Of a stretch of DNA of 64,000 nucleotides, positions 53,263 through 63,739 are shown piece after piece. This DNA is from the human T2T-CHM13v2.0 reference genome, Homo sapiens. The notes below the pieces were generated by a model that worked only from the letters and a program-made list of their open reading frames with translations, was not told the origin of the DNA and did no database searches. The stretch lies in assembly GCF_009914755.1 (NCBI RefSeq), contig NC_060928.1, one strand, 5' to 3'. Numbering within the stretch: the stretch's first letter is position 1; each line of letters opens with the position of its first letter. The position numbers were made by a program, and so were the translations under genes.

Positions 53263-54479
53263 CTGTGATTCAGGGAAGGTGTTTGGAAAGAGGGAGTGGC
53301 CAACCATTAAGACTGGCACTGCACGATGTGTTAAGAAGTTTATAGACCATTTATTTGGCAAAAGGGTTTTTTGAATATCTTTGTAGAAATTATTAGGAAG
53401 ACAGAAGGTATGAAAGGGCAGAGTATTTCCTTAAGATACATTTCCTGTGAAATTACTCTGCCAATGAAAATGAAATTTTAAATATCCTATTATACATGGT
53501 ACATTTGCTTCAACCTTTCTGAAGGATAGTTTAATACAGAAAAAAAACTCATTAAAAAAGGCAACTAGGTTTAACATACATAAACTATATATGTATATAT
53601 TTACACATCTGTTTAATTTGAGGATGTAAAATACTATTACTTTTTAAAGCTTTTTACTCTGAATTATATATTTAAAAAAAAACAGTGCAGAGAGATTCCA
53701 CGTAGCCTTCACCCAAATTCTCCCAAGTGGAAGTCACTATAGCACAAAAACAAAACTAGAAAATTGACATTGAGCTGTGTGTGCCAATATTACATCATTC
53801 TGTGTCATTTTGTCATGTGTAAATTCATGGAACCATCACAACTCAGATATAGAATTATTATGTCACCACAAAGATCTCACTCAAAAAGTGTTATGTCCTA
53901 AGGCTTTCGTTTGGAAAACAGAAAAAAAAATCATCCACATTTCCTCCCAAACAATTATTTTTATTGCATATATTCCCTCACAGTTGTAATTACTGTATAT
54001 CATAATATTTTCTTAACAGCAAATGCACATTTTCTTCACCTTTGACTTTGTACACCTCTAGGTTTTGAAAGCAAATCGACCCATGCTGCAGGATTATCAC
54101 AGGGTTGTTGCCACCCCTGAAATATTCCTTGTGGTAGTACTGATTGCTGGTTAAGATGGCTACATTTAAATACTCATCTTCTGAAGCTTTCTGTGGAGAA
54201 ATTAAAAAACATATATCTTGTATAAAGTCATAGATAACAATCAAAAGAATAAAAAGTATTTGTTCTTCAGTAGTCCATCTGTGTAACTATCATTAGAATT
54301 GTATGAGGAGCCTAGCCCAATTACTTTTCATGATTTAAGTGAATTTAGCATTTTCTTGTTGCTTGTACTTTGTATGTAGATTCTCTAGATGCCAATAATG
54401 ATGGGTTAACTTTTAAAGAAGTGAATATATATACACATATGTGTATATACCTATATATAAATTGAGGAGACGATTTAAC

Positions 54480-55230
54480 TTTTGAAAACGATGTCTTGAC
54501 TGAATACTGCAAAGCCAAAGACAAAAAAGCAAACGCTGTATTCTAATTGGTTACTTTGTTTCTCATAAAGGGACAGGTTAGCAATTATGTAACTATGTTA
54601 TGTAACTAGTTTACACATATAGTAGAGTTTAACAAATAAGCAAATAAATCTTAGCTAATAGGAGACAGGTTTCTCAGCAACAGAAAAGTTACAAATAAGC
54701 AAGGGGTAAGGTGAGGCTAGAATGAATCCTGTGGTGCTGAGAGTTGGAGATATCAGTATAAACTCGTTTATTTCAATAAACTGTAGGTATATATGTATAG
54801 GTATCTGTGTATACATACAAACATTTCCTAGCTGTGTCCACTGAGGGGGCCTACACAGTGATAACCTAGTAGCAGTAGCAATGAGCACATCTTGTGCCCA
54901 GATCTTGGTTTCTAAAACCATTTTTCAGTACAGGGAACAATGGTTTCTTGGGAAAAAAAAATCACTGATTCTAGGGCTGGGCAGGAAAAATAAAAGATGA
55001 GCTTGCAGCATATTGGAGCGCTGGAGAGTAAGGAAGTGCTGAAAAAAAAAAAATAAGGCCAAACAAACAAAAAACACATAGGGAGAGGCATGTCAAAAGG
55101 AAACAGGAACAAATTTTCCAAGAGCTCTCAAAGGCCAAAGCTGCAACACTTTGAGCAACAGTATGATAGTACTGGATTACAACCCAAAGAACAATGTATA
55201 TATCCATGAGTCCACACTGATAAAAAATAT
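54480..55230 (+). mobile_element. L1MC/MD-like 3' fragment
   Basis: TTTCCTAGCTGTGTCCACTGAGGGGGCCTA..ATGAGCACATC..CCCAGATCTTGGTTTCTAAA..ATCCATGAGTCCACACTGATA. Confidence 0.75.
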
Positions 55231-55651
55231 TGGATAACAATTTTCCTTAAGTAAGCTTCTAATTAATAAATGTATCAGGAAATAGGAAGGTGAAACATCT
55301 GGTGAACCTTTGAGCTGGCTAATAAATGTTTTTGCCAACCAACCTATTTTGTGTTCCTTCTGATGCATAACAATGGAAAGAGGATTTTTTTCCCCTATGA
55401 GTTTTGAAAATCAGAAATACCTTTGTGTCCATCACCAGTAATGTTGAAACTATTTTCTATAACTTGTCATGCCCTACAAACCTTACTTTAATCAAATATT
55501 GTGCAGCTTAACACACCTCATAATCAGTCATGCTATTTGATGAAACTTTATCCTTTTAATAAGACATTTTCTAACATTCCAATGACTGCCCCTTTATTTC
55601 ATATTTCCTCTTCACTTTGTATTCGTACTTGACATTGTGAAATGAGGACCA

Positions 55652-56107
55652 GGCCAGGTGCGGTGGCTCACACCTGTAATCCCAGCACTTTGGGAGGCCA
55701 AGGCGGGCGGATCACCTGAGGTTGGGAGTTCGAGACCAGCCTGACCAGCATGGAGAAACCCTGTCTGTACTAAAAATACAAAAAATTAGGTGGGCATGGT
55801 GGTGCGTGCCTGTAATCCCTGCTACTCAGGAGGCTGAGGCAGGAGGATCACTTGAACCCAGCAGGCAGAGGTTGCGATGAGCTGAGATTGTGCCACTGCA
55901 CTCCAGCCTGGGCAACATGAGTGAAACTCCGTCAAAAAAAAAGGAAAGAAAGAAAGAAGGAATGAGAGAAAGAGAGAAAGAGAGAGAGAAAGAAAGAAAG
56001 GAAGGAAAGAAAGAAAGAGAGAGAGAGAGAAAGAAAGGAAAGGAAAGGAAAGAAAGAAAGAAAGAAAGAAAGAAAGAAAGAAAGAAAGAAAGAAAGAAAG
56101 AAAGAAA
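55652..56107 (+). mobile_element. AluSp-like with a long (GAAA)n tail
   Basis: CCTGAGGTTGGGAG..CATGGAGAAACCC; purine repeat at 55942-56107. Confidence 0.92.
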
Positions 56108-56299
56108 ACCAAGTACCACAAATACCCAATACTGAAAGTTGCATTTCTTTTAATGGCTTCTCTAGTTTCAATGCATATTGCATAACAAACACAGGAAGTC
56201 CTATATCTTTCAGCTCAAGGAGGCTTTCTCTTGTGTCCTATATTGCTGAAAGTTTTTATTACCTTCTTTTGTGTGTGTGTGTGTGTGTGTTTTGTGCTT

Positions 56300-61780: not shown

Positions 61781-61784
61781 AAAA

Positions 61785-62438
61785 TTTTCTGTATACTAAT
61801 TATGTTCTGACGTTTGGAAAACCTTTCCAGCTGAGGGCCGGGCACGGTGGGACACACCTGTAATCCCAGCACTTTGGGAGGCTGAGACGGATGGATCACT
61901 TGAGGCCAGGGGTTCAAGAACAGCCTGGCCAACACAGCAAAACCCCACCTCTACTAAAAATATAAAAATTAGCTGGGCATGGTGGTGTGCGCCTGTGGTC
62001 CCAGCTACTCGGGAGACTGAGGGAGGAGAATCGCTTGAACCCAGGAGGTGGAGATTCCAGTGACCCAAGATCACGCCACTGCACTCCAGGCTGGGTGACA
62101 GAGTGAGACTCTGTCTAAAAAACAAAACCAAAAACAAACAAACAAAAAACCTTTCCAGCTGAGGAGAGACTACCTTTCTTAGGGACTAGCCAATTCTCAG
62201 AGATAACAAGGGGCCAACCAGGAGCATGTCTTTGATATACAAACTAATCAATCCAGAGCCATACCTCCTCTATCTGGCCCTTACACACATGTAAGCAATT
62301 ATTTGTCTGCCTTAATCATCCCAGGGCCAAGTGCTATGCAACTAGGGGACAACCTCTACAATTTGAAATCCATTGAAATTATTCAAACTAGCCAATCCTA
62401 AGCTGTTCACCCTGCCCTGCCTCTTCTTTCCCATGGAG
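61785..62438 (+). mobile_element. ERVL LTR fragment (MER74-like), 3'-truncated, with an Alu inside (61836-62148)
   Basis: AGGGACTAGCCAATTCTCAGAGATA..AAATTATTCAAACTAGCCAATCCTAAG..CCCTGCCCTGCC; Alu TSD AAAACCTTTCCAGCTGAGG. Confidence 0.65.
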
Positions 62439-62445
62439 GTTAACA

Positions 62446-63192
62446 TATACATCCCTGGCCTTGAGTGAAATGAAATGACCCAGGCCACAAGCGCATGACC
62501 AGTGGGACTGGAGGGTTCCTTGGTGCATTTGTCACCAAGGCCCGAATCTGGCTCTCTTAACAGAAAGGCAATTGACACCCATGGGCTCACTTAGCAAAAC
62601 AGCTGCTTCTAATGGGGATTGCAGACTTAAAGAAACTGAGATGCAGCCGGGCACAGTGGCTCATGCCTGTAATCCCAACACTTTGGGAAGCCAAGGCGGG
62701 CGGATCACCTGAGGTTGGGAGGTCGAGACCAGCCTGACCAACATGGAGAAATCCCATCTCTACTAAAAATATAAAATTAGCCAGGCGTGGCGGCATATGC
62801 CTGTAATCCCAGCTACTCGGGAGGCTGAGGCAGGAGAATGGCATGAACCTGGGAGGTGGAGGTTGCAGTGAGCTGAGATTGTGCCATTGCACTCCAGCCT
62901 GGGCAACAAGAGGGAAACTCCATCTCAAAAAAGAAACTAAGATTCATGAGCTGTGGACCAGGGAGCAGTGCAGGGAGTAGTAGCAAACCCTGTAAAAAAA
63001 AAAAATCTTAAATCACCCTTTCTTGTGCCCCTTTTAAGGTTGACACAGTGCATTAAGCAGAAGGGTTAAGTAAGTCTCCATAAAACCCAGAGAAGAGAAT
63101 GTAAAGCTCCTCTTTGGAGGAGCTAGACTCCTGTCTGGAGTCACAGCTGAACAAATTCCTTACAGTTTAAGCACATTTGTGATATTTTTGCA
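62446..63192 (+). repeat. Diverged copy of DANCR intron 2 (27855-~28312), split by an AluSp-like element (62645-62932)
   Basis: Collinear blocks: CCAGTGGGAC(C/T)GGAGGGTTCC, CCAAGG(T/C)CCGAATC(C/T)GGCTC, GGGCTCAC..CAAAACAGCTG, AACCCTGTAAAAA, the snoRNA, TTTGTGAT. Confidence 0.88.
63025..63148 (+). ncRNA. SNORA26 paralogue, probably a pseudogene
   Basis: Near-identical GTAAGTCTCCATAAAACCCAGAGAAGAG and TCCTGTCTGGAGTCACA; ACA at 63143-63145 retained; H box changed to TAAGTA; 9-nt deletion in the 5' hairpin; 10-nt insertion in the 3' hairpin. Confidence 0.85.
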
Positions 63193-63739
63193 TATCACAT
63201 ATGATGCATTCAAACTTAACCTTAGCTTTGACAGTGCATAAAAACCAAGTGTTGGTATTTGACACTGTAAGCAGTAATGGCCCAGCAGAATAGTATAGAC
63301 TGCTTTCACCTGAGAACATCTGAAGACTGGCTGACTCTGGTCATAATGCCTCCCAGAACCAGATTTCAATGGGTACGGACATTTGAACTGTTACCTACTT
63401 AGGCCATGGAATGTCTCAAGTTACTCAAACTCACCCGCAAAGGCCTTGCGTCACTTGCGTTCCTCCTGATCTCGAAGGCAGGTGTGCACACTTAGCAGCT
63501 GGCTGTTGCTACCAATGGATTCCCAGTTGTGCTGCCTTTGCCTAACCTCTACATGCTCTCCCAGGCATAACCACAGAAACCTTCACTGAGATATTGAAAT
63601 TAGCATTAACCACCCCACACACCTGTTTTTATTTACTCAGTTTTGACAAGCCTTTCCGTGTATATTGCTGTGAAAACAATGAGATAGCTGTAGGTATTCT
63701 AGGACAACTTTCTTCCTCTCAGGTAAGTTGCATAGCATA

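What the first reader, a model, noticed from the sequence alone, without database searches (positions are those of the whole stretch)
53350..63585. HEMO may have been captured by landing in an intron of a pre-existing host gene and taking over its promoter
Seen: the whole MER34 remnant (integrase, env, 3' LTR; ~61780->58350) lies in sense orientation between two non-viral exon-like segments with strong G|GTGAGT donors (63585-63435 and 58064-57970). The LTR ends only ~290 bp before the next acceptor, and further exon-like segments follow down to an AATAAA at 53355. No gag or 5' LTR is visible upstream of the integrase. Known: HEMO is transcribed from a CpG-rich, non-LTR promoter through non-coding 5' exons. 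Inference: that promoter and those exons are the 5' end of an older cellular gene. The provirus would have acted as a gene trap (env splice acceptor plus LTR poly(A) signal), truncating the host transcript and leaving its downstream exons to decay.
Basis: partly seen in the sequence, partly recalled or inferred. Interest (0 to 1): 0.85.

Follow-up and report, generated by a model that had tools for sequence, protein, structure and literature searches.

The report
HEMO promoter is a DANCR duplicate

Summary
Segment A (63585-63435) is not host DNA. It lies antisense inside an inverted fragment of the MER34 pol gene. Segment B lies unspliced inside RefSeq's terminal HEMO exon. Segments C and D have no relatives and no protein-family match.

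The CpG island lies just outside the window (about 65500-67000). It is a partial, inverted duplicate of the 5' end of DANCR, 38 kb away in the same window. The copy covers the promoter, exon 1, the mir-4449 hairpin, exon 2 and part of intron 2 with SNORA26. All three splice sites are conserved. This 1.2-kb piece abuts a provirus truncated inside reverse transcriptase. A later inversion flipped the SNORA26 copy and the pol fragment. No copy of DANCR exons 3-5 exists nearby, so no downstream exons were left to decay. Whether the provirus or the DANCR copy arrived first cannot be told from the human genome alone. Five of the seven literature searches sought this link; none found it. The 2017 HEMO paper could not be read.

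The parts
27076..28313 (+). Source segment in DANCR: core promoter, exon 1 (27289-27422), intron 1 with MIR4449 (27577-27642), exon 2 (27719-27854), and most of intron 2 with SNORA26 (28144-28265).
   Evidence: Hub gene table. Rfam matches of 151.4 bits (SNORA26) and 76.1 bits (mir-4449). blastn blocks.
64000..64000 (-). PLACEHOLDER for three parts that lie beyond the window end. Coordinates below continue the window numbering; locus L002 base 1 equals 64001.
(a) 65680-66362, minus strand: full DANCR 5' copy, called 'U-x', in HEMO sense. It holds exon 1' (RefSeq start 66314 to the donor after 66233), a mir-4449-like hairpin (66101-66036), exon 2' (65958-65819), and the start of intron 2' ('x', about 65826-65690).
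(b) 66380-66714, minus strand: partial tandem copy U'. It holds the DANCR promoter 27076-27239 and the 5' part of exon 1, joined to the end of exon 2 and the start of intron 2.
(c) 65194-65537, plus strand: P2, a MER34 RNase H fragment, inverted relative to env.
   Evidence: (a) 85.5% identity over 455 nt, E 2e-146. 77% over 667 nt. The only other genomic copy of this DANCR stretch. The three splice sites are conserved in the alignment. mir-4449 match of 67.8 bits, below the gathering score of 71. The limits of exons 1' and 2' are my inference from the RefSeq start, the '3 exons' entry, the weight-matrix scores and the homology.
(b). The x versus x'' distance is K2P 0.105.
(c) L008 E 1e-42 and L007 E 6e-32. 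Overlaps the Pfam RNase_H matches in L007 and L008.
62441..63189 (+). DANCR intron-2 copy (x' plus S, equal to DANCR about 27850-28313) on the strand opposite to HEMO. It contains a SNORA26 copy (63026-63148) and is interrupted by an Alu (about 62640-62940).
   Evidence: Rfam SNORA26 match of 77.9 bits against a gathering score of 40. blastn 73-74% identity. Alignments. Homology extends more than 190 nt 5' of the snoRNA, unlike 8 of the 9 snoRNA-sized copies elsewhere; the chr3 copy runs about 50 nt past its 3' end.
63317..64000 (+). P1: MER34 pol fragment covering the end of reverse transcriptase and the connection domain. It is inverted relative to integrase and env. It continues past the window end to 64405 and is interrupted by an Alu at about 63700-64100.
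   Evidence: Matches in 3 of 3 fetched MER34 copies, all in the orientation opposite to env: L007 E 1e-73, L008 E 1e-30, L006 E 7e-36. In L007 the matched stretch overlaps Pfam RVT_1 (nt 2590-2961) and RT_RNaseH_2.
62150..62437 (.). High-copy interspersed repeat of about 290 bp, lying between x' and the integrase. An Alu (about 61836-62150) is inserted into it.
   Evidence: 416 first-look candidates, of which 40 were scored: the query's own locus plus 39 other loci at 73-80% identity. Alu target-site duplication seen.
60939..61739 (-). MER34 integrase remnant in HEMO sense, broken by stops and frameshifts and by an Alu piece at about 61065-61205.
   Evidence: 71-72% identity to L007 4766-5307 and L008 4438-4916. 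Integrase-like motifs are visible across frames, which is my own reading. No Pfam match.
57442..60832 (-). RefSeq terminal exon of ERVMER34-1. It has the acceptor at 60832 inside the integrase C-terminal remnant, the env coding sequence 60409-58718, the LTR remnant, and segment B unspliced. It ends about 20 nt after the AATAAA at 57464-57459.
   Evidence: Hub table. Acceptor scores 7.7 bits. ORF. Poly(A) signals. The AG is kept in the one other copy that aligns there, L008.
58350..58720 (-). MER34 3' LTR remnant, with an AATAAA at 58434-58429.
   Evidence: 60% identity to L006 6023-6394. A few LTR-like copies in the genome..
57970..58064 (-).
   Evidence: plus the hub table.
53350..55473 (-). 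No annotation and no relatives. An old high-copy repeat occupies 55237-54536 between them.

Best explanation
HEMO (ERVMER34-1) is a chimeric gene with two parts. The promoter, the transcription start and the two short non-coding exons come from a partial DNA-level duplicate of the 5' end of DANCR. DANCR is the neighbouring small-RNA host gene, and the copied stretch is DANCR 27076-28313. The coding part is the env gene of a MER34 provirus whose 5' LTR, gag, protease and most of reverse transcriptase are gone.

Shown:
- The duplicate is colinear with DANCR through promoter, exon 1, the mir-4449 hairpin, exon 2 and intron 2 with SNORA26.
- DANCR sense equals HEMO sense.
- The exon-1 donor and both exon-2 splice sites are conserved.
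- The segment between exon 2' and the integrase (about 62441-65680) is inverted. It carries the SNORA26 copy and the pol fragments P1 and P2. Un-inverting it restores colinearity of both the DANCR part and the MER34 part at once. About 140 bp of DANCR intron 2 is present at both ends of the inverted segment, in opposite orientation, like a breakpoint duplication.

Inferred mechanism: transcription starts in the DANCR-derived CpG island and uses the DANCR-derived donors. The copy has no exon 3, so the transcript splices 5 kb downstream to the acceptor at 60832 in the integrase remnant, probably the old viral env acceptor. It is polyadenylated at 57442.

Inferred history: one rearrangement joined DANCR 28313 to the middle of pol, and an inversion and a partial tandem duplication of the promoter followed. 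I favour the DANCR piece being copied onto an already resident provirus and replacing its 5' half (about 50%), over the provirus landing beside an existing DANCR duplicate (about 35%).
For: 1. Homology. blastn of the HEMO region against the rest of the window gives 65738-66184 matching DANCR 27943-27494 at 85.5% over 455 nt, E 2e-146. The more sensitive run gives 65738-66362 matching 27943-27283.
2. Copy number. In the whole genome this DANCR stretch has only that one other copy, E 1.6e-142 (15 candidates scored).
3. Splice sites align base for base. Exon-1 donor: GCGCG|GTGAGTGC versus GCACT|GTGAGTGC. Exon-2 acceptor: TTCCCCAG|GGC versus CTCCCTAG|GGC. Exon-2 donor: GCGCAG|GTATGTTCC in both.
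4. Hairpin. A mir-4449-like hairpin of 67.8 bits sits in sense orientation in intron 1'.
5. Second block. 62474-63189 matches DANCR 27889-28313 on the opposite strand and holds the Rfam SNORA26 match.
6. Pol fragments. P1 and P2 (63317-64405 and 65194-65537) match sequence upstream of integrase in 3 of 3 fetched MER34 copies. They are always in the orientation opposite to the integrase and env matches. Two of those copies give Pfam matches in canonical pol order: RVT_1 then RNase_H in L007, and RNase_H alone in L008.
7. Shared breakpoint stretch. DANCR about 27850-27990 is present at both 65826-65690 and 62441-62585.
8. The RefSeq start at 66314 and the '3 exons' entry fit exons 1' and 2' (hub table).
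9. DANCR is positionally conserved from zebrafish to human (passages of PMC12694859), so it is the donor.
10. The authors of the HEMO work already call the promoter a 'cellular CpG island' and say the 5' LTR is lost (passages of PMC8978518).
Against: - I could not see the RefSeq coordinates of exons 1 and 2. Their limits are inferred.
- No transcript data were available, so use of these exons rests on annotation and homology.
- Exon 1 aligns poorly (67% identity, K2P 0.45).
- Distances are heterogeneous. DANCR to x is 0.143, but DANCR to x' is 0.265 and x to x' is 0.275. On a strict clock that would make x' older than the DANCR/x split, which does not fit a simple 'one duplication then inversion' history. 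It requires slower change or gene conversion in the two CpG islands, or two separate copying events.
- The six translated frames of the HEMO-locus pol blocks give no Pfam match themselves. Their identity rests on DNA similarity of 60-69% to other copies.
- The order of duplication and integration is not determined.
Confidence: 0.8

Rival explanations
1. Modified gene trap. A partial duplicate of the DANCR 5' end (an orphan promoter with two exons and no 3' end) already lay here. The MER34 provirus then integrated in sense just downstream of it. Later a deletion removed the 5' LTR, gag and most of pol, and an inversion followed.
For: - The structure is the same as in the best explanation.
- From my own knowledge, not tested here: gamma-type retroviruses prefer to integrate within a kilobase or two of active CpG-island promoters, which would fit a site about 1 kb from this start.
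- The neutral-looking partitions are old. The S-block flanks give K2P 0.21-0.25, and the x' branch is about 0.20 by my three-point arithmetic. That is of the same order as the roughly 100-My integration date given in passages of PMC12704712.
Against: - It needs an extra deletion that ends exactly at the DANCR/pol junction.
- No DANCR-like sequence follows the 3' LTR, so the provirus cannot have sat inside a longer DANCR copy.
- The CpG-island block is less diverged than a neutral duplicate older than 100 My should be (non-CpG K2P 0.17).
Confidence: 0.35
2. The provirus landed in an intron of a now-lost host gene. Segments A-D are that gene's decaying exons, and the LTR poly(A) signal truncated it.
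For: - The motifs exist at the stated places.
- D has a good acceptor (7.6 bits) and one open frame over 151 nt.
- B, C and D are not detectable repeats.
Against: - The segments are at chance level.
- A is antisense MER34 pol.
- B is unspliced in RefSeq's terminal exon, which also reads through the LTR signal (hub table).
- D has no paralogue in the genome and no Pfam match.
- The promoter's source gene is identified as DANCR, and its exons 3-5 have no copy here.
Confidence: 0.04
3. Two independent copying events from DANCR rather than one duplication plus an inversion. An older event gave the SNORA26 block on the plus strand. A younger event gave the promoter block on the minus strand.
For: On a clock, x' is about equally far from DANCR (0.265) and from x (0.275), while x and DANCR are close (0.143).
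Against: - It does not explain why the MER34 pol fragment between the two blocks is also inverted, nor why un-inverting one segment restores colinearity of both DANCR and MER34.
- All three HEMO-side copies share a 7-nt gap and 'ACCCA' against DANCR's 'AGTCA'. Without an outgroup this could also be a change in DANCR.
- The sample is small, about 125 sites.
Confidence: 0.12

Closest known systems
HEMO / ERVMER34-1 as described by the Heidmann group (PMC8978518 and PMC12704712, passages read; the 2017 PNAS paper could not be read)
   Same: Same gene. They state that the 5' LTR is lost and that transcription comes from a 'cellular CpG island' or 'CpG-rich promoter'. They also state that the 3' LTR is degenerate, that integration was about 100 Mya, and that the ORF is kept in simians and some Felidae.
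   Different: The passages I read give no origin for that CpG island. Here it is traced to a partial duplicate of DANCR, with conserved exons and splice sites. The locus is also shown to hold an inverted pol fragment and an antisense SNORA26 copy. The 2017 paper may hold more than I could see.
DANCR (ANCR, SNHG13), host gene of MIR4449 and SNORA26
   Same: The order promoter, exon 1, hairpin, exon 2, SNORA26 and the splice sites are shared. Both have CpG-island promoters: GC 0.70 with CpG o/e 0.84, versus GC 0.67 with o/e 0.73. DANCR is described as suppressed on differentiation and overexpressed in cancers (passage of PMC7591992). HEMO is described as expressed in stem cells, placenta and tumours.
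   Different: The copy lacks exons 3-5. Its SNORA26 has a 9-nt deletion and a 10-nt insertion and lies antisense. Its hairpin scores below Rfam's gathering score. Its transcript continues into a retroviral env.
HCP5, a hybrid of an HLA class I gene and an endogenous retrovirus (PMC6562477; title and start of abstract only, from the listing)
   Same: A duplicated host-gene 5' region is joined to ERV sequence to give one transcription unit.
   Different: Going by the start of its abstract, HCP5 is a non-coding RNA made mostly of antisense ERV LTR and pol sequence. HEMO keeps a selected env ORF in sense.
Retroviral gene trap: host exon spliced to the viral env acceptor. Also LTR-driven co-opted env genes such as the syncytins (recalled background, not tested)
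   Same: A host-derived donor splices to an acceptor at the 3' end of pol, upstream of env.
   Different: No interrupted host gene is present on both sides of the provirus. The host part is a 1.2-kb duplicate that ends at the junction with pol. The LTR is not the promoter, and in RefSeq it is not the end of the transcript either.

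Membership tests
Provirus inserted in an intron of a host gene (gene trap) | Host promoter and 5' exon(s) spliced to a viral acceptor | tested here: inconclusive
   The host origin of the promoter and exons is shown by homology to DANCR. 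The splicing itself rests on RefSeq (3 exons, acceptor at 60832). No transcript data were available here.
Provirus inserted in an intron of a host gene (gene trap) | The remaining exons of the same host gene lie downstream of the provirus | tested here: not met
No DANCR-specific match to exons 3, 4 or 5 in window-equivalent 36500-79000. The 79 hits on exon 5 are all Alu against Alu.
Provirus inserted in an intron of a host gene (gene trap) | An empty site with an intact gene in outgroups that lack the insertion | not testable with these tools
   No other mammalian genome is held. A passage of PMC10604696 says Afrotheria and Xenarthra lack the insertion.
Chimeric gene formed by partial (5') gene duplication | A paralogous source gene, colinear over promoter, exons and introns (a DNA-level copy, not a retrocopy) | tested here: met
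   Colinear over DANCR 27076-28313 including both introns. It is the only such copy in the genome.
Chimeric gene formed by partial (5') gene duplication | The copy ends inside the source gene and is joined to foreign coding sequence | tested here: met
   DANCR homology ends at 28313 (window 63189). MER34 pol homology begins at 63317.
Inversion with duplicated breakpoint sequence | Un-inverting one segment restores colinearity on both sides, and the same stretch is present at both ends in opposite orientation | tested here: met
   The present order U-x-P2'-P1'-S'-x'-IN becomes U-x-S-P1-P2-IN. The x stretch, DANCR about 27850-27990, is at 65826-65690 and at 62441-62585. Caveat: the distances do not fit a strict clock.
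MER34 (ERV1-type) provirus | pol, env and LTR in canonical order, related to other genomic MER34 copies | tested here: met
   Integrase, env and LTR blocks are colinear with the chr2, chr12 and chr14 copies. The Env protein finds 78 matches including the query's own locus, from 77 scored of 708 candidates. gag and the 5' LTR are absent. The family name MER34 comes from the annotation and papers, not from a repeat library.
Rfam SNORA26 (RF00568) | Score at or above the gathering score over the full model | tested here: met
   63026-63148 on the plus strand scores 77.9 bits against a gathering score of 40, over model positions 1-122. It is much weaker than DANCR's 151.4 bits. It has two indels and no annotated plus-strand host transcript, so it is probably a dead copy (inference).
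Rfam mir-4449 (RF03917) | Score at or above the gathering score | tested here: not met
   L002 2036-2101 on the minus strand scores 67.8 bits, below the gathering score of 71. By my count it has 2 differences within the annotated mature sequence.

The most novel reading that the evidence does not exclude
The join of a duplicated DANCR promoter module to a truncated MER34 provirus was itself the domestication event. It happened around the time of integration, about 100 Mya, before Laurasiatheria and Euarchontoglires split. It gave env a stable, methylation-controlled CpG-island promoter with DANCR-like activity in stem cells, progenitors and tumours. That would explain both the 100-My survival of the ORF in simians and felids and HEMO's expression pattern.
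Probability: 0.3. Interest if true: 0.8.

Novelty: new variant of a known kind. Interest (0 to 1): 0.68.

Why it matters
HEMO is described as the oldest full-length retroviral env gene in the human genome, and it is being pursued as a tumour antigen. The origin of its 'cellular CpG island' promoter is not given in any passage I could read. Tracing that promoter to DANCR has three consequences:
- It gives a concrete route by which a provirus that lost its LTR kept being expressed.
- It predicts shared regulation of DANCR and HEMO, which can be tested with existing CAGE, ChIP and expression data.
- It turns the question 'when and how was HEMO captured?' into a simple comparative check of one 10-kb interval across mammals.

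It also shows that the locus holds more proviral sequence than listed, in the form of an inverted pol fragment.

Tried and rejected
- The 2017 HEMO paper (PMC5559007 and its DOI) is not held. Its transcript map and anything it says about the promoter's origin remain unseen.
- Pfam scans, reading stops as X:
  - The three minus-strand frames of 60830-64000 gave 0 families.
  - The six plus-strand frames of 63150-65750 gave 0 families.
  - Segment D and the six frames of 53300-55645 and 57832-58350 gave 0 families.
  - The HEMO-locus pol and integrase remnants are therefore too decayed for profile matches. Only the chr12 and chr14 copies gave RVT_1 or RNase_H.
- My first fetch of the chr2, chr12 and chr14 loci took the wrong side, so one search showed only Alu matches. 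This misled me until the Env search.
- Search for MER34 5' parts upstream of the DANCR block, out to window-equivalent 79000, found nothing. The only hit was a 53-nt match that I judged to be A-rich low-complexity sequence, and I did not check that judgement.
- Sequence 66700-67350, upstream of the DANCR block, is single-copy.
- Dating by K2P is too noisy to order the events. Partitions range from 0.11 to 0.45 over 40-450 sites. The neutral rates I used to turn distances into years are recalled, not computed.
- I considered that the DANCR promoter and the HEMO promoter might both be MER34 LTR derivatives, or a shared repeat. I rejected this because the core has only these two copies in the genome and DANCR predates mammals.
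- I considered the SNORA26 copy being a snoRNA retrocopy. I rejected this because homology runs more than 190 nt upstream of the snoRNA into intron sequence.

Full report
**Observation**

- A, 63585-63435, with donor CGG|GTGAGT.
- B, 58064-57970, with donor CTG|GTGAGT.
- C, 55473-55421.
- D, 54190-54040.

The proviral remnant is also as described. The integrase remnant runs from about 61739 to 60939, env from 60409 to 58718, and the LTR from 58720 to 58350.

The signals are not above chance. I scored sites with a weight matrix built from recalled splice-site frequencies. Donors of at least 10.8 bits number 7 on the minus strand and 5 on the plus strand of the 64-kb window. About one such 'exon' is therefore expected per 10 kb per strand, and two are seen. 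C-grade and D-grade pairs are far commoner: 400 of 401 and 34 of 95 minus-strand donors respectively. A and C have stops in every frame. B and D have one open frame each.

**Annotation**

RefSeq places only the terminal exon (57442-60832) in the window. The other two exons and the start (66314) lie beyond base 64000. I fetched the next 5 kb (L002). The CpG island is at about 65500-67000. Segment A is therefore inside RefSeq intron 2. Segment B is inside the terminal exon, unspliced. The env acceptor is at 60832, not 60608. The annotated transcript reads through the LTR's AATAAA (58434-58429) and ends after another at 57464-57459.

**What the segments are**

Whole-genome searches gave the following:
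- B is single-copy.
- C and D have no other copy. An old high-copy repeat lies between them at 55237-54536 (1243 candidates, 40 scored).
- D's open frame has no paralogue and no Pfam family.
- The stretch around A (63749-63326) has three weak paralogues, on chr2, chr12 and chr14. Their matches run across both of A's 'splice sites'.

A search with the HEMO Env protein then showed MER34 env copies 0.4-4 kb from each of these three places (708 candidates, 77 scored). After fetching the correct side, blastn showed that window 63317-64405 (P1) and 65194-65537 (P2) match sequence lying just upstream of integrase in these copies. In all 3 of 3 copies that match is in the orientation opposite to the integrase and env matches.

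In the chr12 copy the matched stretches overlap Pfam RVT_1, RT_RNaseH_2 and RNase_H, followed by integrase and env. That is the canonical order. The chr14 copy likewise gives RNase_H. So the HEMO locus keeps a pol fragment that has been inverted. Segment A is the antisense strand of that fragment.

**The promoter**

Comparing the HEMO region with the rest of the window gave an unexpected result. Window-equivalent 65738-66184 is 85.5% identical over 455 nt (E 2e-146) to DANCR 27943-27494, in inverted orientation. With more sensitive settings the block becomes 65738-66362 matching 27943-27283. Further pieces upstream reach DANCR 27076. A second block in direct orientation, 62474-63189 (split by an Alu), matches DANCR 27889-28313.

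DANCR lies on the plus strand and HEMO on the minus strand, so in the first block DANCR sense equals HEMO sense. Genome-wide, this DANCR stretch has no other copy.

The base-level alignment puts the DANCR exon-1 donor, exon-2 acceptor and exon-2 donor exactly on GT and AG sites in the HEMO copy. These sites delimit a first exon starting at the RefSeq start (66314-66233) and a second exon (65958-65819). A mir-4449-like hairpin sits between them at 67.8 bits, just under Rfam's gathering score of 71.

The direct block holds the SNORA26 copy that RefSeq and Rfam report (77.9 bits). Its homology reaches more than 190 nt into DANCR intron 2. In contrast, eight of the nine snoRNA-sized copies elsewhere in the genome end within about 10 nt of the snoRNA; the chr3 copy runs about 50 nt past its 3' end.

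DANCR is positionally conserved between USP46 and RASL11B from zebrafish to human (passages of PMC12694859), so it is the source copy.

**Putting it together**

Read in HEMO sense, the locus today runs in this order:
- U': the DANCR promoter plus a deleted exon 1/exon 2 unit.
- U: exon 1', hairpin, exon 2'.
- x: the start of intron 2'.
- P2' and P1': pol fragments, antisense.
- S': the rest of intron 2 with SNORA26, antisense.
- x': a second copy of the start of intron 2, antisense.
- A roughly 290-bp interspersed repeat with an Alu inserted into it.
- Integrase, env, LTR.

Un-inverting the single segment from about 62441 to 65680 gives U-x-S-P1-P2-IN-env. This is colinear with DANCR 27076-28313 and with MER34 pol-IN-env at the same time. 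The roughly 140-bp stretch x is present at both ends in opposite orientation, as a breakpoint duplication would be.

The ancestral state was therefore a 1.2-kb DANCR 5' fragment joined in sense to a provirus truncated inside reverse transcriptase. The junction lies between 63189 and 63317.

Two further searches bound the structure:
- DANCR exons 3-5 have no copy in window-equivalent 36500-79000. The only hits are Alu against Alu.
- No 5' LTR, gag or 5' pol was found upstream of the DANCR block out to 79000.

**Mechanism**

Steps resting on annotation and homology: transcription starts in the DANCR-derived CpG island and uses the DANCR-derived exons.

Inferred steps: the copy has no exon 3, so the exon-2' donor pairs with the acceptor at 60832 in the integrase C-terminal remnant. 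That is where a retroviral env acceptor is expected. The AG is kept in the one other copy that aligns there.

This is promoter capture, as the Heidmann group's phrase 'cellular CpG island' already implies. The donor gene is now named.

**Timing**

Distances vary by partition:
- Non-CpG K2P is 0.11-0.20 in the CpG-island block, and 0.45 in exon 1.
- It is 0.21-0.25 in the intron flanks of the SNORA26 block.
- In the shared stretch, DANCR to x is 0.143, DANCR to x' is 0.265 and x to x' is 0.275.

The copies inside CpG islands have changed less, or have been converted against each other. The copy outside looks, by rates I recall, of the order of 100 My old. That is the same order as the published integration date.

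I therefore cannot order the duplication and the integration. I lean towards the DANCR piece replacing the provirus's 5' half in one rearrangement, because that needs fewer events. Nothing DANCR-like follows the 3' LTR, which rules out only a provirus sitting inside a longer DANCR copy.

**Literature**

Five searches of the held library found no paper linking DANCR with HEMO, ERVMER34-1 or MER34 beyond naming them as neighbours. The passages I read from PMC8978518, PMC12704712 and PMC10604696 give no origin for the promoter. The 2017 PNAS paper and its supplements could not be read, so prior notice there cannot be excluded.

**Verdict**

The named exons fail. The underlying intuition is right in a sharper form that I found in no paper I could read: HEMO is a fusion of the DANCR 5' end with a MER34 env gene.

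Noticed in passing
L002 2036-2101 minus strand (window-equivalent 66036-66101): A mir-4449-like hairpin lies in HEMO intron 1, in sense orientation. It scores 67.8 bits against a gathering score of 71. By my count of the two printed sequences it is 92% identical to MIR4449, with 2 differences inside the annotated mature sequence. Whether it is processed is unknown.
   Followed up: partly
window 63026-63148 plus strand: The SNORA26 copy annotated as LOC124900185 is part of a DNA-level copy of DANCR intron 2, not a retrocopy. It has a 9-nt deletion and a 10-nt insertion. It lies antisense in HEMO intron 2 with no annotated plus-strand host, so it is probably dead.
   Followed up: yes
G000 chr1, chr2, chr3, chr7, chr9, chr20 (places listed): Nine SNORA26 copies at 81-91% identity lie elsewhere in the genome; eight are limited to the snoRNA plus or minus about 10 nt and the chr3 copy runs about 50 nt past its 3' end. 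They look like snoRNA retrocopies. Two further loci, chr9:95672005 and chr15:53367661, match the MIR4449 region of DANCR intron 1.
   Followed up: no
L002 1720-1820 versus 2410-2510 (window-equivalent about 65720-66510): There is a partial tandem duplication of about 690 bp period inside the HEMO CpG island. The upstream unit joins the 5' part of DANCR exon 1 directly to the 3' end of exon 2. The x versus x'' distance is K2P 0.105. RefSeq's divergent lncRNA LOC107986281 (65856-68461, plus strand) overlaps this DANCR-derived block in antisense.
   Followed up: partly
window 40037-46290 and 53049-53262: Several low-identity matches (62-75%) were found to parts of the chr12 and chr14 loci that hold MER34 copies. 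They may be other old repeats shared by those loci rather than MER34 itself.
   Followed up: no
window 35205-35551: About 350 nt of DANCR's last exon (34763-35592) is an Alu element. It produced 79 Alu-against-Alu hits.
   Followed up: no
L006 (G000 chr2:208845000-208854999) 2668-3253 and 3250-6394: The chr2 MER34 copy has the pol P1 fragment joined almost directly to env, so RNase H and integrase are deleted. It also has an LTR-like 3' end that matches the HEMO LTR at 60%.
   Followed up: no
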